The notes below the pieces were generated by a model. That model was not told where the DNA came from, ran no database searches, and saw only the letters and a program-made list of their open reading frames with translations. The translations under genes were made by a program, and so were the position numbers. From assembly GCF_003704095.1 (NCBI RefSeq), contig NW_020847109.1:1-64000 (forward strand): a DNA stretch of 64,000 bases. Direction: 5' to 3'. This document shows, one piece after another, positions 2-43,823 of this stretch. Numbering within the stretch: the stretch's first letter is position 1; the number at the start of each line of letters is the position of its first letter. This DNA comes from Pocillopora damicornis (lineage: Eukaryota).

Positions 2-100
2 CATGGCACTTGGCAGCCAGATAGCGGCAAGCGAGGCTCGTTTGAAGAACACCTCCTCGGCTCCTTAAAACGTGCGAAGCTCGATGGAATTGAGCAGTAA
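2..100 (+). CDS. Possible C-terminal tail of an upstream gene running in from the left edge (HGTWQPDSGKRGSFEEHLLGSLKRAKLDGIEQ*)
   Basis: Frame 2 is open from base 2 to TAA at 98-100, followed by AATAAA at about 103 and 175. No family recognised. Confidence 0.35.
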   Translation, partial: HGTWQPDSGKRGSFEEHLLGSLKRAKLDGIEQ

Positions 101-709
101 GAAATAAAGTTTGGGCAAGCCAGTAAACATCTTGGATGTCTCCATTAGACAGGGATACAGCTTTATCTGCCCAAAATAAAGCCGTTTTGTACAAATGCAT
201 GTCTATATATTGTCGAACAAGGTTACGAAGTTGAGAGATATCAACCTTCCCGCCAGTCGCCATGTTGGATTTTTGGGGAATACCGCTTGCACGTCATAAA
301 TTTACCGTTGGCATAAAATTCTTTTGTGGGGGTGTGGAGAAGGGAGTTTAAAAAATATTGATCTACTAATTTAGTTATCTTTTAGTCCTTTGATTTTTGC
401 TTCCCTCTGAATCAAAGTTATATACCTTATGTATGGTTCTGCATTATCGATATTTCAAATCAATTCTCAAACTTTTATTCCTTATTGATTCGTCCTTTCA
501 GCTCTTGGCACCTCTCCCCACAGGCCAATTCGACTGGCCTGCAATAGTGGGGAAATGGCCGCGAATTGAGGAGGAATGTAGTTAATGAGTAGTTTTCCCT
601 TTGATTTCTTCACCGCCGTGTCCTCATGAGGTTTATGGTTGCCATATGTTACGAGATATTGGTTAGTTTCTGCTGAGTTGTGGTTATTACAACTCCAGGT
701 TTTGCGATC

Positions 710-6700: not shown

Positions 6701-9700
6701 ACTTTTACAAAGGCTTAAAGTCAAAATAGCCATTAGGAATGGGGAGAATGGAAATAGCAATTGTTATGGTTTGCAGAGCATTGAAAGGTTAGTAGTAGAA
6801 CATCCATATACTGGCTCTTTGACCACTGATGTGAGATTCAATTGGAATTTGGATTCTTAGTCTTTTTTCAGGGAAAAAGGGTGAACTTTGGGAAAAACTG
6901 TCTGCTAAGTTCACCAATAGCAAACTTGGCCCACTTGTGTTGCTAGGTGTATAATTTAGCCCTGTCTACAACAATCAAATGAGAGTGCATGCACCACTGA
7001 ACCATCCTGCTTGCTTCCTTAATGATGTTTTCTAATGAAATATTTTGCCTTTGCAGGATCCTGATCAAGTTTCACAGGTATCCATGGAGTCACCATTTCC
7101 TGCCCATGATGGCACCAGTGCTGACTTGGCATTCTTCAGCTCCTCTGTGTTTGATCATGCAGCAGGTGAATCAGGAGCAGCAGACACAGTATCTGTGGCA
7201 TCAGCTGACATATCAGTAGTGAGAAGTGGTTCAGTGTCCTCTGGATCATCAGAGACACATTCTCAACACACTAAGAGTGGACACTCAAGGAGTGGTTCTC
7301 TGGTGAATCAGATGGGTCCTAATGAAGGATCTCAAGCTGAATTTGCAACTAACTTTGATGATACAAATGTGTGGACTCCCTCCTTTGGTAACAATGATGG
7401 ACAGGAAGGAGACGAGGCACCAAAAAGTGGAAGCCTTGAAAACAAAGTAGCTCTTTTCCCCCCTCTTACTGATGCTAAGAGAGAGGACCAAATAGAGATG
7501 CCATCAGCTTTGGAGACATCAAGTGGTTTAGAAAGCAGTTCAGACCCTTTTGCACCATCAGATGGGTCCACAAGATTGAATGAAATAGCCCAGCCTACTG
7601 GTGATAATTTGTTCACTGAATCATTTGCAACATTCGAAGCATCATTTGACAAGGCTGAGATGAAAAATAACAAAGAGAACCCCTCCTGTTATGACCCTTT
7701 TGCTGCCTCAAGTGATCTTCAAGATAAGGACACTGCCTTTGGAAGTGCTCAACAACAGCACAACTCTGCCAGTGTCCAAGATCAAAGTCAAGAAGACAAT
7801 GGTGATGAGGAAACAGTTGACTCTGAGAGGTCAGATAAAACTGTTGAAAAGGCAGCTGTAAGTTTCTCTTGGGACAATGCATTTGAAGATACAAACACAA
7901 CTTCCCAACCAGAAACAACTCAGAGCACTACTACAACACAAGGACAGTTCTCTTGGATTGAAAGTTTTACTTCTGAGGATGTTGAAACTTTGCCAAAAGC
8001 TGACCCTGTAACTTCAACTGGAGTTTTTTGGGATGATACCTTTGGTGAAGCTGTGGCAGCTGAAAAAGAATCTTCCAACCAAGCAGAGGAACCTTTCTCA
8101 TGGGATAATGCCTTTGGTGGAATGGTTGCAGATAGTAGCAATGAGCAGTTTGACCAATCACCATTTGGTGATCCTTTTAGTGTTTCATCAACTGTGGAGT
8201 CTAGTACTGGTTCAATTGATGTGTCACAGCAAAGTGATCAGCCAGCATCACAGCATGCTATCTCTAATGATCTTGAATTAGGTGGCTCAGTGTCTAATGT
8301 ACAGTCAGAGTTACAGGCTGATGTTCCTCCTGATGAAGCACTTCCTGCGCCTGCATCAAAATCTGAAAGTGACACACTTGTCTCGGATACTCTTGGATCT
8401 GGTGATCAACCTGGAGATCTCTTTGAAGAGCTGAAGATTTCTTTTCAAGGTCCAGACAACCAGAAGAAGGCAGATATTGAGGAAAGTGATGAAAGCTCAG
8501 AGCCTGAAATCAGTAAACTTAGTGAAAATGTTTTATTTGGTGCAGAAAATGCTTCAAATGAATTGGGGGCTGATGAAAACAAGGACACAACTAAGGTAAT
8601 GAATCAGATGGACAGTGCTTTAAACTTAGCAAATGAAGAATCTCCACCCTCAGACACCAAAGAGGAAGAGGTCAAGAAAGAAAAAGATGGAAATTCAGAG
8701 CTCCATATCCAGGAATCAAGTTTTTCAATCTCCCAACGTTCCATCTCTCCAACTGTCCCTCCTCCTCTTCCACCACGCCCTGCATTATCAGCCCCTCCTC
8801 TCCCAGCCAGACCAGCAAGCTTCAACTCAACTTTGTCACCCAGAATTTCCCCTTTCAGTCCCCAGACATCCACAGGGCCACCAGCATCAAACTCTCCACA
8901 TCAAGGGAAGAGGAGCAGTGCAAAGAAAACCCCTCCTGCACTGCCACCTAGAGTAGATTTGAATGAGAAATCACAGAACAAGTCTTCAAATGTAACAGAG
9001 GCATTTCCAGATCCATTTGGTGGAGATGTATTTGGTCAGAAGTTTAATGATAACAAAGTGATAACTCAAGATGAAACCTCTGATTGGGCCACATCATGGC
9101 CTAATTCAGTGGAAGTTTCTTCTGCAGGGAAAGGCAAAGACCTTTCTGATCCTTTCAGTGAAGACTTTTTTACAAACTTTGACTTTCCTCAAAAGTCTAG
9201 TGGGGAAAGTATTAAAGTTGATCCTTTTGGTTCAACAAAAGTACCCTCTGAAATTTTTCCATCAGAATTGGAAAATCAAGATATGTTTGCACAGTTTACC
9301 CCTGGTAAAGGGGAAGGTGTATTTGACAGTGGAGATCCTTTTGAAAATGACTCTTTTGCAGCATTTCCTGCAGATGATCCTTTCAGCGATATAAGTGACC
9401 CTTTTGCAGACAAAGGAGTTTTAGGTGAGGATCCATTTACTGATAGTCCACGAAAGCCACAGTCTGGGAATGCTTTCACTCTCAATGAGGTTTGTATTTA
9501 TATTTTTATTTGTATTTTTTTTTCTCAAGGATTGGTGGATTTCATAGTCTTTTAATTACTCAATGGTCTGACTTGATGAATCTTACATTTTCACTTCACC
9601 ATGGTGTGAGATTTGCATTCTATTGGTTTTTTTACTGAATTAATATATATTTTTTTTCTTCATGTGTGAGCCGGCAGTATTCTTCAAATCTTGTCATCTG

Positions 9701-34400: not shown

Positions 34401-37400
34401 GTGTCTGGGAAATTTTTTCTCGGAACAAACGTCTTTTTAGATGGAAACGGCGACTGTTAAACCGATTGGCATAGCTTGAGCTACCTGATGAATCTTTGAA
34501 TCTCTGACTTACGGAAGGATATCTAACAAGAAAGATTTAATCTCCTTAAGGCAAGACTGCAATGTAGTTTGAAACCCCAGAAACAATTTGGCATTGGTAA
34601 CAACCTTCTTTTACATATCAAAACCTGCAAGCTCAGCCGGGGAGTTTTCATCCTTTCGCAGCTTGGATGTGTACTGAAGTTGTAGATTTACTTGGATCTT
34701 GTTTTTGTAAGCAAACTGACGGGGTTAAAACATCACTCCAAAATATGTTTTATTATATTTATGGGGCTTTATCTTGTTCGCTGATCATATCATTTTTTCG
34801 CTCGATAGATATGGCAAGACAGAAGCGATAGAAAAACTGATGGATCGACAGAATGCTCGAATTCTAAATCTACAAAACAGTCAAGGAAAAACTGCCCTGC
34901 ACTTTGCATGCATGGAGGGGCACGATCTTTCAGCAGAAGTGCTTTTGAGATTAGGAGCAACCATTGAGAGGTACGTGAGTATGATTGAGGAATTCCTCAG
35001 TTGTTAGTCAAAACGCTCATATTAAGTTCATATCAGGCAGATATCGATGGCGAAAGTTTATGAGCGGAAGCAGCTAATGACAGCTAGGACAACTAGTGAG
35101 AGTTGGTAGCAGAACTTAATTTACCACGGTTTGGGCGAATAACGGGTGAAAAAAGTCGAGATAACGAATCATTTACTTTTTGAAATTCATAGGGATCAAC
35201 AAGACCGATCTCCATTACATTTAGCGGCGTCTAAGGGATCCACGAGATGCTGTGAAGCGATTCTTCAGAAGTTCGAGGATTGTATGAACATGGTGGAAAA
35301 AAATAAGGTAGCACACCCACAATTTTTTTTAAAAACTTGACTGATGTGATTACTTGCCACTACCGTGTTTTCTGCCAATCAGTGCGCTAGTAGAATGCCA
35401 ACGGTTGGGCTGAGATTTTGAATAACCTGAGATGGACTAGCCTACACGTGGATGGATTAATAGCATTTCCTGTCACCTCGTACTTTACCTGGCGGCTCTC
35501 GAGGACCTCAACCTAAATTCTTTTTTAAGTTAGGGTAAGGCCGAGGACGTCATCGCCTTAAGATCACATTCGCGAAAATTTTACGCTCAACTAAGTATTC
35601 CTCAGCTGATTCGCTTGTCGTGCTTTATTAAAAAAATCTATTCATTTGGTAAATTTGGTATACGTGTTAGGTGCGAGAAATGGTCATGTTTAGCTCAAGT
35701 GCGGCATTTTATCTAATCATCCTTTGATTTCGTCACCTCATTCTTTCCGTTCCTACTCTGTGCTATTACTTTTCACAGAACACGGCGTTACATATCGCGG
35801 CTATCAACGGTCACGCTTCTGTGGTGAGCTTATTGTTGTCTGATAGCAAAGCGGACGTCACACGTAACAACACAAATGATAACATTCTGGACGCTGCTGT
35901 TAAAGAAAAGAGGAATGACGTTGTCATGACGATTGCCGGAAATGACAGGTGAAATGCATGCTGCCAAAGCGATATCTTTAAGATGATTTCTTGACCAATT
36001 TTTAAAAGTGCTCAATCAGTCTAAGGGCATTTTAGCAGTGAGTTACATCGACAGAAATATAACAATATTATTAGAAAGCATAGTAGTTCCCAGACCACTG
36101 GACAAAAGCTTTTTGGAATTGGTAGACCCACCTATAGTTTTTCACCTCATGGGCATGCCTTAAAAGTTTAGTATTCAAAAATCATTTAACAGTTTTGAAG
36201 TCGTGAAAAACTAAATCTGTGGTTACTTCACTTGAAAACCCCATGGAAACAGCCATGATGAAGAGATGGGGGATGATATTGATACTTCCAACAAAGAGAT
36301 TTGAAAATTGAAAACTACGTAAAATATTGATTCAAACAGAGACGTTTTTTAAATGCGTACGGCTCGCGGAAAGATTATGTAATCTCCTCTTGGGTGTTTT
36401 GACCTAAGGTATTCCAATGAACAGCCCCTGAGTTACAATATTACTGACATTCAAGGCTCTTTCTTTGCGTCTATGCGCATAACTGTCTTTCATGTGCGCA
36501 ATATACAGTAAAAACAACAATTTTTGGCTTTGTTTAATCTATATATTACAAGAACTATCCATTTAGTGTTTACTTTCTATTTTTTCCCTCTCGTTAAATA
36601 GATGGAGAGAGGTTCTGACAACGTGTTCAACAGGCGTAGTTCCGCTGCTACAAAATCTCGTAGAAGATATGCCAGATGCCTTAGTGGTAACTATATTTCG
36701 ATAGAATTGCAAACTGTTGAATACATTTAAAGATTTTGTGGTATTATTAATTCAAAGAGAATATAGACAGTTTCAAGAGATTATAATCTCCTGACACTTT
36801 ATATTCTCTTGGTAATTTTAAGGGTAAAGAAGTTGCTTCTTTCACTGCACACCTAATATCGATTGGTAAGCTAGAGTGTATGTGGTATCACGGTTTCATA
36901 GGGCCTTCTTTCCTTGTAGCGGATTTTGGATCAGCTTGTAACAGAGACTGGAGATCAAAACAGCATGAATTACAAGGTAAGACTAAAGGCAATCTTTCAT
37001 TATTAAATGTTACCCCGCCGGGCAAGGTAAAAGTAAAACTGCAGTTTGATTTCTACTGTCTTGGTTTGTTTTGTTTGTTTGTTTTCATTTCCTTACATTT
37101 TGGAGAAAATAATCTGTTTGGAGCACGTAAGTCAGACCTTTATCTAAGATTTTGTTGCAGTGGTAAGTGGTTTTAACGGACATGGTTGAGGCGACAAATT
37201 GAGGATGAATCAGTTGCTAGAGTGATGGATTGACAGTCCTTAAACGCTAACAGAGCAAACTATCGGCCCTTCTTCCTTGTTGTAAGGCTGCAATTTGGCT
37301 TACGTCACCCTGCTATTAATTCAACATTTTTCGATCCTTTCTTATCGATTACAGATCAATTATGACCTTGGTTTGATTCAAGGAAAATTTGAAGAACCCG

Positions 37401-40400
37401 AAATCAAATCACGAAGAACCACCGATACCGGAGAAAAGGTAATAGAATAGAAAACGAATAGAAGACATAACGGCAACATTTTTCTCACTTTCTAGAGAAC
37501 TGTTTGCCTCCTGCACATCCACCAATGGTTAGCCTGTGCAAATGATAAGTTCTAGGTTAAAACTCAAAGCTGTGGCTTGAAGGGACATTGAAGTCAAATG
37601 AATATTATTTAAGAATACTCCAGTTTTAGATTTCCGCTATTTCATATGATCTCGGTTGTTCTATCTTCTTTGTCGCTCTCTGCCAAAAAAACTAAAAATA
37701 TTTATAAATGTTTAAAGATTTAGTAAAGGAGAATAACGTAGGGCTAGGGATATATGGCTGAGATATAGCCAGAGGAAAAACTTTTATTTCGAATATTTTT
37801 AAACATTACAGCTTTGAAGGAATAATTGAAAAACGAAATGAAAAATATCCTATCAGTCCACTACCACGCCAATATACCCATGAGTCCTTGCTTGTTTTAT
37901 ATATCAATTTCAAAATCAGTGAATGAAATATTATTCTAGGATTCATCAAAAGACAGTCTTAAAGTCGAAACTGTGGAGATGAAACGATCTGAAATGAACT
38001 CATTGGCTTTAATAGAGGTAAAAGAGACATTGTTGGTACAGTTTTACCACTTCTGCGCAGTAATGTCCTTATAGAGCTACTATCTATTTGAATACGTACA
38101 AAATACTTTTGCAGTGCCGTAGGTAGCCCTTGCCCGCAAGATACAGGGTATTTACGTAATATATACCTTAATAATCATGATGAGGATTCAGACTTCAATC
38201 CCTTGAAATCTCTTAATGTCTAACGACGATATTGCTCTTTATTTAAGGCAATTCAAAGTTTTTCTTCTTTCATGCATATGTCCAACGAATGTGAACACCT
38301 CTCCTCATAGACGTCAAAAAAGCATCACAAAAACGTGTTCATGTGGGTTACGAGTTTTTTTAGGTAAATGTTCATGTAAAAATAACCAAATATCAGCCGT
38401 GTTCTAGAGATGCTTTTCTTTTTATATTTCAGACCATGGCGATTCATCGCAGAGAGAGATGCCTAACGCATCCTATCAGCTTTCATTTGCTGAATACTAA
38501 ATGGTACGAGGAGAGTAAAATGATTAAAGGATCTCAACCCTGACTATTTAAAATTTTTCTCCATCAGTTACATATTACATACAATAAGTTTGTTATTGGA
38601 AATAAAACCACCCTCCATGGACTTGCATCATGAATCACCTCAACTTTTAAAACCCACCTCAACAGGAAAAGATCTGGATTCAAAAGTATTAAAAATAACG
38701 TCATGGACTGCACTGTTCACTTTTATTCTACAAGGTAATAATAATGCTCTTTCATGTGTTTCCAGGAAGAAGTTTGGCTGGATGACATTCGCAGTCAACC
38801 TGTTGACCTACCTCCTCTTTATTGTACCGCTGACCACCTTAGCCGTGTACACGCGAACACATGAAGATGATTTGTGTGGTTTTAACTCTTCCAATCCCAA
38901 CGAGGTAAGCTTTGCAGGCTATAAAACAATTCAATGAATTTGACAATTTACATGTAAAAAAACCTATGTATTTTTATTCGAACGAAGATCCTTCTCAATA
39001 TCAAACACGATAACCCTAATAGGTATGTTTTTTTGAGGCGTATTGATTGCCTAGAAACCACGGCTTAAGTTGGCCTTTGTTTAATCATTAACGAGCCCTG
39101 AGAGTCTGAGCTTCGAGGCCCTACGGGTTACCTAGAATTTTCCTTTGTCCACGCTACAGAGAAATGTTCAACTTCTAAGCTGTGTAAAATTATATTTCCT
39201 TTGAAGACTGCCAAAAAATAAAGGGGGTAAATTTCTAAAGAAACTATGGTGCTGAGTCGGTGGGAGAGTATAACAAGGTAATTTATCAACTGAGTTGATA
39301 ACGTAAATTGGCCACTGTAAAACGTTTAAAAGCTCTGAGGAGGGGCTAACGTACGAAACGTCAGATTTTAAACTCTTTACGGTGGCCAATTTACGTTATC
39401 AACTCAGTTGATAATACTAATTTTGTCTTTGCCAAGATACACGAGGAGATGGGACAATTTGTTTTCTCATTCTTTTGTCTTCTAGAATAGAGATGAATTC
39501 CAATGTACTTTTTCCAATGTGGTAAGTGTTTTATCCCGAGTCGAAGTTATGTCCATGTAGGTGCACTTGATATGGTCGAAACGTATCACAAGTTACATGC
39601 AGCCCGGCGATAGAGACCCTAATATGCAAGATGGCCGACAAAACATCCTTGACGAACAAATTGGGAGAAACTAAAAAAAAAAATGAGTGAAAGGGAAACG
39701 AAATGGTTTTTAAATGTTCATTCTGAGCACCCTTCCAGCATTCAATTGAGTTATCAAATTTGCTCCGCTGGTCGGTCTGCTATGTTCAAACCCTCAGTGG
39801 ATACATTAATAGAATTTGTGGTAATGTGGTAATTTTTCATCTCAAATCCTCCCCTCTCCAGGTAGTTTTCTCCCTCTTTACTGGAAAGTAAGGAAATAAC
39901 TTATTGACTCTGGTGTTCATGGCATTTTGTTCTTACTATTTCGCAGGTAGTTCAGGTGTTTAATTACTTTGTGTTAATCACAGCATCAGGGCATCTTCTA
40001 AAGGAACTCATTTCTTTATACCATAAGGTTAGTAAATCTTGGTCAACACCCATGAGTATTTTGCCATATTCATCTAGGAATTCTGAACCATGTGATGCTA
40101 GTTTAGATCAGGTAAGACTCTTACGGGAAAAAATTTGTATTATGGAAAATGTGTAAAGATAATTTAAGCTATATCTGTACTCTTAATAATAAATGAAACG
40201 TTCTACGGAGTTTAGTTAGACCTAATGGATTACACAGGGGGGGACAATCATGTGCCCCTTTTGTACCTGCATGAGAATATTGACAATTTACTTCTCTAAA
40301 ACAATCCGACAACCCCCCCTAAATTTCAATAAGACGCTGTTACGGGAATAGTTTATCACAAAAAAAAAAATCTGCCAAAGCCTCAAATTTTTTTAAAATT

Positions 40401-43400
40401 TTTCTTGACAGCGGCTGTCATACCTGGAAGATGTCAGTAACTTCTTGGAATGGGTTTGTTATATAGCATCAATACTGTACGTCATACCACCCTGTGACTG
40501 TAAAGCTGGTTTTAAAAGAGAAGTTGGCGCGGTTGCTCTATTCTTTGGTTGGATGAATCTTATCTTATACTTTAGAAGGTAAGTTCCAAAAGGAATGTTT
40601 AAAATAAAGATCTCAAGATTTCCGCTGAAAACTATTTCCTATCGAGTTCGATTTCGGTCATGTCGCAATAAAATGAAAGGAAGTTAACTTTATACTCTCA
40701 TTTAACTTGCTTACGATTCTTCTCCTGAAATGCATGGCTCAGTAAGGCCACTGATGACACGTTAGAACTTCTGATCACTAATCAGTTCGTTCCGTTTTTT
40801 TCATTCTTAGACTGTCTTCCTACGGTCAATATGTCATCATGTTGTCAACGATGTTTGTTACATTATTAAAGGTTTGTTTCAAAATACGTCAAAATACTGG
40901 TTTCAGTTATGTCTTATTTCCCTAAAGTTAAGTCATAAAAAACACTTTCATCATACTGGATCCTCTACGCTGAGTTTTTTCTTGTTATAGATATGTCCAT
41001 TAATTCTTCTTAAAGAGGAAAAAAACATATGATTGCTTGACCAAAGGTGTTGCGGTTGATCTGAGGAAAATTGGCAAAGAAAAGCCTCTATCACTTTTAC
41101 GTTCCTAGAGAGCTCTTCCTCTTTCGTAGGCTAAAATTCTCTAGAAACGACCCAGTCGACAGACACATTGCAATCAAGGTCTGTTGTTTTCTTCGCGTTG
41201 GCATGGTCACGTTTTTCATGTTTGTCGAGCCTTATTTTTCCATAATTTTTCGCAGGTTCTGCTTCTTTGGATTTTGTTTATAATGGCATTTGGGACAACA
41301 TTTTTATTGGTCATGAATGATGTAAGTTTATTACATAATCTAGGAATCATAGAAGAAGCAAATAAAGTGAGGGATTTTTATGGCTTACTCCCTTTTGTTG
41401 TAGAAGGATTTTTATTACAGTTTTGAGAAGAAAAAAATAACATTATCACTTCTAAAGCAGCTGAACAGAAGAGGCCATACACATGACAATTTTTGTAGAA
41501 GTAAATATACACACTCAATGTTTCCTTCTATTCCACGCTGATTTTCAGCAAAATTATCTATCAATGATAATTTGGCTTTATCAACTTGATAATTATATGT
41601 AAATTAGCCACCGTAAAGGATTTCCGTAAGCTGACATTTTTAGCTGTTAGTCATTTTCTCTGACGAAAGGCCAATACTGGAAAAGTCAGCTTTAGGAACT
41701 GTTTACGGCGGCCAATTTTTTATTATCAACTCTGTCGATAAAACCAATTTATCTTGTTAAACTCCCTCATCGACGCATCACTACAGTTTCTTTGGAAACT
41801 TGCCCCCTTTATTCATATATGACACAAGTTTTGTTTAAACTATTCCACAGCCTCCATTTGATAAGTTTGGTACTTCAATGATGACGATGTTTGTGATGAC
41901 TTTGGGAGAGATGAATTACCATGAAAACTTTCTTCCGTGGGATAATCTGGCCTTCTCGACCCTCACCAATATTTTGTTTATCGTGCTTGTTCTTGGAATG
42001 CCTATCATAATGATGAACATGCTGGTGAGGCTAATCACTGAGAATATTTCAGATCCTCAATGTGTTATGATAATTCAGGAATGAGATGAAACGAGGTATC
42101 ACACAAGATAAAGAGTTAATGACTCTTCGCATAGCGACATTGCATGATTTCACCTGGGAGGAAGAAGACAGGAGGGGGGGGGGNNNNNNNNNNNNNNNNN
42201 NNNNNNNNNNNNNNNNNNNNNNNNNNNNNNNNNNNNNNNNNNNNNNNNNNNNNNNNNNNNNNNNNNNNNNNNNNNNNNNCCCCCCCCCCCCCATATATAT
42301 AATTACTGGTCAGGAGTAAAAATTTGCACTTTGGTGGGGAAAGATGGGAAAAATGGCAGAGATCCAGATCTTGTGAGCAGTACATTCTATTTCATGCCTG
42401 TTACGTGATTTACACCGTTATCATTTTTATAAATTTTGCTTAATTTCTACTTTTTCAGGTTGGTCTGGCTGTTGGTGATATTGACAAAATCCAGGAGAAT
42501 GCACTTATGGATCGTTATGTCCTTCAAGTAAGGAAAAGATAATTTTTGAAAGATAAATCATGTTGAAGAATATTCTCGTAGTAGCCCTGTTTCGGGTGCA
42601 TGTTAGCTTAAGTGATGAAATTAGACGAATGTACATTTTGTTTTTCAATTCCCAGGTTCGGCTGCTTGTGGACATCGAAAATTCTCTCCCAGAGTTTATC
42701 ATGAAACGTGTGCAAGTTTACTCGTACAGCGAGTTTCCAAACCATCCTAAGACACTTAAACAAAAGGTTGGTACTAAAATTTAAATATGAAAGTCTCTTT
42801 AAGGTCAGTCAAATGAGGAAAAATTTCACTCTTATTCTTAGACTTTTGATGCGTTAAAAATTTTGTCCATTCTTACATTTTTCAGTTGATCGATGGCCTC
42901 GTTGGTTTTGATAAACCTCAAGTTAGTATCGAGGAAGAAGCTAATGAGATGTCACCGGAAATGGTAAAAGTTCTGGAGAGAATACAAAAACAAGAAGAAA
43001 AGTAAGGAGCTTCTGCGACGTGAGGCACTTAATACGTTGAAAGGGAATAACTGATATTATCATATGACTTGTACGACCCCGCGCGAGCGTGGGCCGCCAG
43101 TCCGGAAAAAGACGTCTGGTTTTGCACTCACACAGCTCTTTTGCATTTTCCCAGAACGTGAAATTAAAATGGAGGAAGGAGGCCTAGGAGAAAAAAAAGA
43201 TGAGAAAACGAGTCGGGCTTTTCGATGAATTATGAGTTTCTAGTTCTGAAACAAAGAAAAAAATACGACTCAAAGTTACCTAAAGTAGAATTTTTTAATA
43301 GTTGTCCAGCGCTCGCCAAAGTGGTTATATATACAATGCCTATTGATACAGTTTAGTTGGGCAAGACGACAAATTATTTGGCTCAAATTTATACAACACG

Positions 43401-43823
43401 GTTCTCGTTGCGCTCGGTTCGTATGTTATGACCTTCCCATCCGGCTCTTTCAGTCAGTCAATAAAAACTCATCATCCCGACAGACGTTAAACCTTTAATA
43501 ATCCTTTGCTGATTGTGAGAACGACAAAAATGGTACAAGAGAAAAGAAAGGCTATTTTGTGCATCTGTATCTCCAGTGGAAAGGAAAGTGATTTTTCGGG
43601 TATTTAGTTGCACAGCTTAAACAGTAAGAAAGCATTTGGTAAATAATTTTGTTAAAAATAGTTTGGTCTGTTTTTTTTCTCCAGAATGCAAAAGATGTAC
43701 GAAATGATGAAAGAGCAGTCAGATTTGTTGAAAGAAATACAAAGCAGAAAGATAGCAGACGAACAGAAAAAGAAAGAAGAAACAAAGACGTCCAGTAAAA
43801 TTGGTTTATTTGGATTTTCATAA
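28498..43823 (+). CDS. TRPA1: TRPA1-like ankyrin-repeat TRP channel, paralog A, about 1111 aa, 30 coding exons, complete
   Basis: Phase-consistent exons: 28498-28674, 29306-29399, 30115-30290, 30822-30929, 31464-31572, 31697-31791, 32569-32616, 32842-33027, 33220-33408, 34127-34213, 34311-34396, 34809-34970, 35193-35307, 35779-35948, 36602-36686, 36920-36976, 37355-37438, 37940-38017, 38433-38503, 38766-38904, 39486-39521, 39947-40027, 40412-40578, 40811-40871, 41256-41321, 41851-42024, 42459-42527, 42656-42766, 42886-43001, 43685-43823 (sum 3336 nt). Features: about 16 ankyrin repeats (TPLH-type), pre-S1 LTHP...KW, S1-S6, pore MTLGEMNY, S6/TRP-like MNMLVGLAVGDIDKIQENA and a C-terminal coiled coil. 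Confidence 0.93.
28910..28931. repeat. Poly-G tract (22 nt) in the first coding intron of TRPA paralog A
   Basis: Direct read. Confidence 0.95.
33540..33852 (+). mobile_element. Interspersed repeat with terminal hairpin (family shared with 4885-5140), in a TRPA-A intron
   Basis: Reverse-complement similarity to 4885-5140. The terminal imperfect IR is aacaattagtcacctcaaagt...ttcacctccactttggtaaatgattgtt. Confidence 0.65.
39220..39420. mobile_element. Fold-back copy of the hammerhead-bearing repeat in a TRPA-A intron; degenerate hammerhead at 39332-39365 (+)
   Basis: ttatcaactgagttgataacgtaaattggccactgtaaa pairs with tttacggtggccaatttacgttatcaactcagttgataa. The loop contains gctCTGAGGAggggctaacgtacGAAACGTCaga. 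Confidence 0.75.
41575..41812. mobile_element. Fold-back copy of the hammerhead-bearing repeat in a TRPA-A intron; degenerate hammerhead at about 41657-41690 (+)
   Basis: gtaaattagccaccgtaaa ... CTGACGAaaggccaatactgGAAAagtcagc ... tttacggcggccaatt ... cagtttctttggaaacttgcccc. Confidence 0.65.
42184..42279. other. Assembly gap (96 N) flanked by poly-G and poly-C, intronic
   Basis: Direct read. The flanking exons 41851-42024 and 42459-42527 join in frame (MNML|VGLAVGD), so no coding exon appears to be missing. Confidence 0.95.

What the first reader, a model, noticed from the sequence alone, without database searches (positions are those of the whole stretch)
37355..38017. Paralog A has an extra exon and 26 more residues in the ankyrin-to-S1 linker, the region that tunes heat sensing in insect TRPA1
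Seen: A uses two phase-0 exons (37355-37438 INYDLGLIQGKFEEPEIKSRRTTDTGEK and 37940-38017 DSSKDSLKVETVEMKRSEMNSLALIE; 54 aa). B uses one 84-nt exon (58650-58733 VKYDLNLVQGQFPGEPFKADNKSLQLIK; 28 aa) that matches the start of the first and the end of the second. This is the only exon-count difference between the paralogs in the region visible. Both A exons are skippable in frame. Known: Drosophila TrpA1 isoforms differing by alternative exons in this linker differ in thermosensitivity. Inference: the paralogs, or splice forms of A, may differ in temperature gating.
Basis: partly seen in the sequence, partly recalled or inferred. Interest (0 to 1): 0.7.

Follow-up and report, generated by a model that had tools for sequence, protein, structure and literature searches.

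The report
Coral TRPA1 paralog with extended loop
One of two neighbouring coral TRPA1-like ion-channel genes carries an extra intron and a 26-residue longer, predicted-disordered loop in the same exon that insects splice alternatively; the long loop is an old feature of this gene across stony corals, was always included in the transcripts seen, and likely adjusts channel regulation, while a role in heat sensing is untested.

Summary
Observation confirmed. Gene A has 30 coding exons and gene B 29; the only difference is that B's 84-nt exon is two exons (84 + 78 nt) in A. RNA contigs in 3 of 4 runs join both exons. The splicing idea is not supported: no skip joint among those displayed, 72 of 72 loop-spanning A-type proteins keep the long loop, and either skip would remove a conserved strand or helix start. 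The long loop marks an A clade found in six coral genera, sister to a 28-residue B clade, so it is old and derived. Long loops also arose elsewhere (13 of 37 non-cnidarian TRPA proteins). Heat tuning is untested: the fly exon matters in Drosophila but not in Aedes, and A and B also differ at a calcium-site residue. A real paralog-level variant with a clear test; moderate interest.

The parts
28498..43823 (+). TRPA1-like gene A, 30 coding exons, 1111 aa
   Evidence: Model identical to XP_027055675.1; Pfam ankyrin repeats + Ion_trans; best fold match Drosophila TRPA1 7ykr
36920..36976 (+). A exon 16 (57 nt), upstream of the loop; equals B 58169-58225
37355..37438 (+). A exon 17 (84 nt, phase 0): conserved nexus strand motif YDLxLIQG plus first half of the extension
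   Evidence: strand at residues 658-662 of the model
37412..37432 (+). Most conserved part of the extension (RRTTDTG); fits a basic-residue kinase consensus (consensus recalled)
   Evidence: [RK][RK]x[ST] at this place in 28 of 30 distinct A loops, 0 of 9 B loops; column identity 0.65 against 0.39 for the whole extension
37439..37939 (+). A-specific 501-nt GT..AG intron (derived)
   Evidence: Spliced in 3 of 4 RNA runs; absent from B, from 3 other TRPA paralogs of this genome and from a B-type locus of another coral (L030)
37940..38017 (+). A exon 18 (78 nt, phase 0): second half of the extension plus the conserved SLALIE start of the next helix
   Evidence: helix 709-716 of the model
38433..38503 (+). 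A exon 19, nexus helix leading to pre-S1; equals B 58961-59031
40004..40006 (+). A codon for Glu at the position of human calcium ligand E788
48955..64000 (+). TRPA1-like gene B, 29 coding exons, 1092 aa; ends at contig position 66415, beyond the window
   Evidence: Model identical to XP_027055679.1
58650..58733 (+). B exon 17 (84 nt, 28 aa): ancestral single loop exon with the same borders as fly exon 10a/10b
60737..60739 (+). B codon for His at the position of human E788
   Evidence: His in 8 of 8 B-type, Glu in 8 of 8 A-type proteins

Best explanation
Genes A and B are tandem TRPA1-like paralogs shared across stony corals, and in A the single ancestral loop exon is split by an extra intron and lengthened by 26-36 charged residues that are included in every transcript form seen, are predicted to be disordered, and likely act as a fixed, paralog-specific regulatory appendage on the activation loop rather than as a splice-controlled heat switch. 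Shown: exon structure, splicing, conservation, direction of change, and position in the loop after human C665. Predicted: disorder. Inferred: that the appendage changes gating or regulation, most simply through its conserved R-R/K-x-T motif (a possible kinase site) or by its bulk beside the TRP helix.
For: 30 against 29 exons with all other introns matching. Both exons joined in 3 of 4 runs. A clade 8 of 8 long, B clade 8 of 8 short, sisters, SH-aLRT 99/100/100 in a quick tree; six named genera in each clade. The single exon is ancestral: three more paralogs here and insect exon 10 share the borders. 72 of 72 loop-spanning A-type proteins are 54-64 aa and 33 of 33 B-type are 28 aa. Residues 670-704 have pLDDT under 50; the fly loop is also unresolved in cryo-EM. 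The loop follows the human C665 position, and the human A-loop contacts the TRP-like helix through K671. Motif kept at one position in 28 of 30 distinct A loops.
Against: No functional data. The extension evolves fast (identity 0.39 against about 0.80 for the rest, close to the 0.34 of the free N-terminus), and long loops occur in 13 of 37 non-cnidarian TRPA proteins, as expected for a site that simply tolerates insertions. The motif lies near a splice donor and in a K/R/S/T-rich stretch, so its persistence may have other causes. Low pLDDT may partly reflect the few long-loop rows (13 A-type of 58) in the alignment. The extra intron is shown directly only in this genome. Contigs drop rare isoforms, and 11 joints were not displayed.
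Confidence: 0.55

Rival explanations
1. The extension retunes heat gating, so A and B are thermosensors with different thresholds or Q10.
For: Exact positional match to fly exon 12/13, which reviews describe as a likely determinant of heat activation. TRPA1 protein rises at 34 C in Aiptasia and a TRPA1 gene is an outlier in Acropora from a hot lagoon; which paralog those studies concern was not determined.
Against: The 111/108-nt exon swap did not change heat responses in Aedes. Du et al. tie the exon to electrophile sensitivity. The fly and Scaptomyza forms with both exons barely respond to heat or agonist. Loop length is fixed by paralog across six coral genera, so it does not look like a species-level dial. 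No recording of a cnidarian TRPA was found.
Confidence: 0.2
2. The extension is a nearly neutral insertion in a surface loop; functional divergence of A and B lies elsewhere, for example at the S2 calcium site.
For: Low sequence conservation, predicted disorder, repeated independent lengthening in other TRPA lineages. Fourteen fixed A/B differences, among them Glu against His at the E788 position.
Against: Length is held within 54-64 aa and was never lost among 72 proteins; B is held at exactly 28 aa in 33 proteins; one motif is retained.
Confidence: 0.22
3. A is alternatively spliced at these exons to give long and short channels, as in insects.
For: Both exons are phase 0 and all skip forms stay open; the acceptor of exon 18 has a purine-rich, weak-looking tract.
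Against: No skip joint among those displayed; 0 of 72 proteins lack either exon; neither exon holds both conserved ends, so skipping removes the nexus strand or the helix start.
Confidence: 0.05
4. On origin only: exons 17 and 18 arose by tandem duplication of the ancestral exon followed by complementary decay, rather than by intron gain plus accretion.
For: A loops (54-64 aa) are about twice B's 28 aa; exon 17 is 84 nt like B's exon; duplication gives a phase-0 intron directly; insects duplicated the same exon.
Against: No significant trace of the 5' motif at the start of exon 18 in 9 of 9 A proteins; the single p of 0.03 was a window next to the true motif. DNA of exon 18 against B's exon p = 0.29, against exon 17 p = 0.46. 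The test has little power at this age.
Confidence: 0.3

Closest known systems
Drosophila TrpA1 mutually exclusive exons 12/13 (10a/10b; TAC or BAT domain)
   Same: Same exon: begins at I/V-K-Y of the nexus strand and ends just before the T-M helix in fly and in coral B; same loop.
   Different: Fly swaps two complete 37/36-aa exons within one gene; coral A has two incomplete exons joined in all forms seen, and the difference lies between genes. Fly A carries C694 here; the corals have Gly.
Drosophila/Scaptomyza TRPA1-E (both exons included)
   Same: Loop about doubled by two exons in series (that E holds both exons is recalled; its inactivity is).
   Different: E is a minor, inactive form with two full copies; coral A's long form is the only form seen and is conserved.
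Human TRPA1 activation loop (C621/C665, K671)
   Same: Aligned over about 1045 residues, E about 1e-122; the extension falls right after the C665 position.
   Different: C621, C641 and C665 positions are V, A and G in A and are not Cys in any of 8 A-type or 8 B-type proteins; the human loop is 22 residues shorter than A's.
Other long-loop TRPA proteins (Haliotis P0076, sea urchin P0079, P0162, P0081)
   Same: Loops of 58-90 residues between the same anchors.
   Different: They fall in separate clades with unrelated loop sequences: independent lengthenings.

Membership tests
TRPA channels | Long N-terminal ankyrin array plus six-helix ion-transport domain | tested here: met
   Pfam Ank families and Ion_trans above cut-off in A and B; model secondary structure
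TRPA channels | Closest solved structures are TRPA1 | tested here: met
   phmmer top 8 hits are TRPA1; Foldseek top hit 7ykr, E 1.1e-41
TRPA1 orthologue group | Groups with vertebrate and insect TRPA1 rather than other TRPA clades | tested here: inconclusive
   The 13-row clade holding A and B is sister to the clade holding axolotl and butterfly TRPA1 (SH-aLRT 97, short branch, midpoint root, no bootstrap): many-to-one co-orthology is likely, not proven
TRPA1 electrophile sensors | Reactive cysteines at C621, C641, C665 | tested here: not met
   0 of 16 A/B proteins have Cys at these aligned positions; a Cys four residues after the C621 position is in 8 of 8 A and 5 of 8 B
TRPA1 calcium site | E788, Q791, N805, E808 (Y799 not scored) | tested here: inconclusive
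   A: E, S, N, E; B: H, S/A, N, E
Insect TAC/BAT splice switch | Exon with these borders between ankyrin repeats and S1 | tested here: met
Insect TAC/BAT splice switch | Two complete alternative copies of the exon | tested here: not met
   Each A exon carries only one conserved end; no further copy in five flanking introns
Insect TAC/BAT splice switch | Alternative use in transcripts | tested here: not met
   No skip form among displayed joints or in 72 proteins; rare forms not excluded
Thermosensitive TRPA | Heat-evoked current with high Q10 | not testable with these tools
   Needs heterologous recording

The most novel reading that the evidence does not exclude
Stony corals duplicated the same TRPA1 loop exon that insects duplicated, but fixed both copies in series in one paralog, turning the insect splice-level switch into a gene-level one: A and B would be heat sensors with different thresholds, shared by reef corals since before their main lineages split.
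Probability: 0.1. Interest if true: 0.78.

Novelty: new variant of a known kind. Interest (0 to 1): 0.38.

Why it matters
Coral TRPA1 has been linked to heat stress by abundance (Aiptasia) and by population genetics (Acropora). This genome has six loci matching the pore exon, and the passages I read of those two papers treat TRPA1 as one gene. The A/B pair is a natural, ancient loop-swap experiment at the very exon implicated in fly thermosensing, with a second clean difference at the calcium site. If the loop sets heat gating it would give a first molecular handle on coral temperature sensing; if not, it is one more tolerated insertion in a variable loop.

Tried and rejected
Exon skipping in A: not seen; only one set of four runs was laid, so rare skip forms remain open. 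Overlooked exon in B, or extra alternative copies in A: the scan of five introns gave scores of 21-33; an 'ISYDLG' look-alike in A's new intron (37630-37674, best score 33) was matched or beaten by 9 of 24 control stretches. Tandem exon duplication: protein and DNA tests not significant. The extra intron in other corals: a metagenome scan gave 21 loci, none with A-type genomic DNA over the loop, so it is shown only here. The first gene-model script started at a wrong (TTG) codon taken from P0001 and failed; corrected. The careful tree did not finish; both trees are quick trees. Zhong 2012, Gu 2019 and Zhao 2020 were not held, so their results come second-hand from other papers. The mosquito supplement's alignment is a picture and gave no text. 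Earlier scan findings: none. No complex prediction was run.

Full report
Observation. Gene models built from coordinates give A = 30 coding exons (28498-43823, 1111 aa) and B = 29 coding exons (48955 to contig position 66415, 1092 aa), each with 0 mismatches to a RefSeq protein, XP_027055675.1 and XP_027055679.1. The sources label these Pocillopora; a member of A's cluster on a contig of the same length is labelled P. damicornis. All other introns agree in position and phase, so the extra exon is the only exon-count difference over the full genes. RNA contigs in 3 of 4 runs (three studies) splice exon 16>17>18>19 at these borders; the fourth run barely covered the exons.

What the proteins are. 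Both are TRPA channels: ankyrin repeats plus an ion-transport domain, with human and Drosophila TRPA1 as the best sequence and fold matches. In a quick tree with the loop columns removed, the clade holding the cnidarian proteins is sister to the clade holding axolotl and butterfly TRPA1 (SH-aLRT 97, no bootstrap). The genome has six loci matching the pore exon.

Where the extension lies. It follows the position of human C665, between the nexus strand and the helix before pre-S1. This is the activation loop. Wang et al. (PMC10073219, passages read) place fly C694 (= C665) there, say the isoforms differ in about 36 residues of this region, and report the loop missing from their maps. Supplementary Fig. 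3 of Du et al. (PMC11471635) lists the exon 10a and 10b peptides: both start at I-K-Y, end at A-L-N or V-V-N, and the fly chain continues T-M. Coral B's exon starts at V-K-Y and ends just before T-M. So B's exon has the same two borders as the insect alternative exon, which implies both flanking introns predate the cnidarian-bilaterian split (inference from peptide borders; fly genomic DNA was not examined).

Direction and age. Three other TRPA paralogs of this genome use one exon with these borders (a fourth locus, L010, did not include the region), as does a B-type locus from another coral (L030). One exon is therefore ancestral and A's intron is derived. In a 53-row quick tree, 8 long-loop proteins form the A clade and 8 short-loop proteins the B clade; they are sisters (SH-aLRT 99, 100, 100). 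A-type clusters have members named Pocillopora, Stylophora, Orbicella, Porites, Acropora and Montipora; B-type Pocillopora, Stylophora, Oculina, Porites, Acropora and Montipora. These span the robust and complex coral lineages (grouping recalled). The 8 sea-anemone rows all have short loops and fall outside both clades. Consecutive accessions for A and B in Stylophora and Acropora cervicornis suggest the tandem arrangement is also old. The extra intron itself was seen only in this genome.

Splicing. Of 97 A-type proteins examined, 72 spanned the loop and all were 54-64 aa; of 49 B-type, 33 spanned it and all were 28 aa. These include near-duplicates, and at most 15 members per cluster were listed (15 of 76 for the Pocillopora A cluster). 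No skip joint was displayed, with 11 weaker joints hidden, and contigs drop rare forms. The AlphaFold2 model (58-row alignment, mean pLDDT 76.7) puts a strand at 658-662 in exon 17 and a helix at 709-716 that starts in exon 18, with 670-704 below pLDDT 50 (numbering of P0001, RefSeq + 10). Skipping either exon would remove one of these invariant elements and would not give a B-like loop. In-frame length is common here: 15 of 28 internal exons.

Function. The 38-residue stretch has 9 K/R, 10 D/E and 9 S/T, and pairwise identity among 8 orthologs of 0.39 against about 0.80 elsewhere. Its best-kept part (0.65) contains [RK][RK]x[ST] at one position in 28 of 30 distinct A loops and 0 of 9 B loops; reading this as a PKA-type site rests on a recalled consensus. 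The human loop contacts the TRP-like helix through K671 (PMC7663402, passages), so a modifiable extension could plausibly affect gating. Against any special role, 13 of 37 non-cnidarian TRPA proteins have loops of 58-90 residues (three truncated rows left out), in separate clades.

Heat. Two reviews describe fly exon 12 as a likely determinant of heat activation (PMC5666710, PMC4843867, passages). However, the equivalent 111/108-nt exons made no difference to heat responses in Aedes (PMC6934445, passages), the exon changes electrophile sensitivity (PMC11471635, passages), and the E isoform barely responds (PMC12132172, passages). Coral links are indirect: more TRPA1 protein at 34 C in Aiptasia (PMC13033444, passages) and an outlier TRPA1 gene in Acropora from a hot lagoon (PMC11874183, passages). 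Searches (listings only) showed no recording from a cnidarian TRPA and no description of this paralog pair or its loop; the library lacks most subscription journals, and bioRxiv supplements were not available.

Other differences. Neither paralog has Cys at the C621, C641 or C665 positions (0 of 16). At the E788 calcium-ligand position (site residues from PMC8036557, one passage) A has Glu in 8 of 8 and B has His in 8 of 8. This may matter more than the loop and would confound a plain A-versus-B comparison.

Origin. The A loop is about twice B's, which suggests exon duplication, but motif and DNA tests found no significant trace. Intron gain with accretion is equally open.

Verdict. A real, transcribed, ancient and lineage-wide paralog difference in the exon that insects splice alternatively. 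It is not a splice switch on present evidence, and thermal tuning is a reasonable but unsupported hypothesis (about 0.2). New variant of a known kind; interest 0.38.

Noticed in passing
window 40004-40006 and 60737-60739: Glu (A, 8 of 8) against His (B, 8 of 8) at the human E788 calcium-ligand position; both clades also have Ser/Ala where most other cnidarian TRPAs have the Q791-equivalent Gln. B may have lost calcium regulation at this site.
   Followed up: partly
window 36602-37438 and 57791-58733: Neither paralog has the canonical electrophile cysteines; a different Cys four residues after the C621 position is invariant in A-type proteins.
   Followed up: partly
window 50692-50799: A P. verrucosa RefSeq isoform of B (XP_058946311) lacks 36 aa matching this exon, about one ankyrin repeat: the only alternative internal exon seen between annotated isoforms of this pair.
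   Followed up: no
window 51212: B exon 5 ends at a GC donor in the best-fitting model.
   Followed up: no
window 39207-39420: High-copy repeat inside an intron of A (very high contig depth, opposite-strand joint), with a related copy near 54867-55060 in B.
   Followed up: no
window 3-293 (-) and 14989-15975 (-): Neighbours: an ANAPC3-family (APC subunit) exon and a MED26-like ORF.
   Followed up: no
window 7039-9552 (+): 838-aa open frame, low-complexity, no Pfam hit; probably a large exon of an upstream gene.
   Followed up: no
G000 C3996, C3290, C2992, C1284: Four further TRPA-like loci in the genome; three share A/B's intron positions around the loop.
   Followed up: partly
window 42185-42279: Assembly gap (N run between G and C homopolymers) inside an intron of A; it does not touch exons.
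   Followed up: yes
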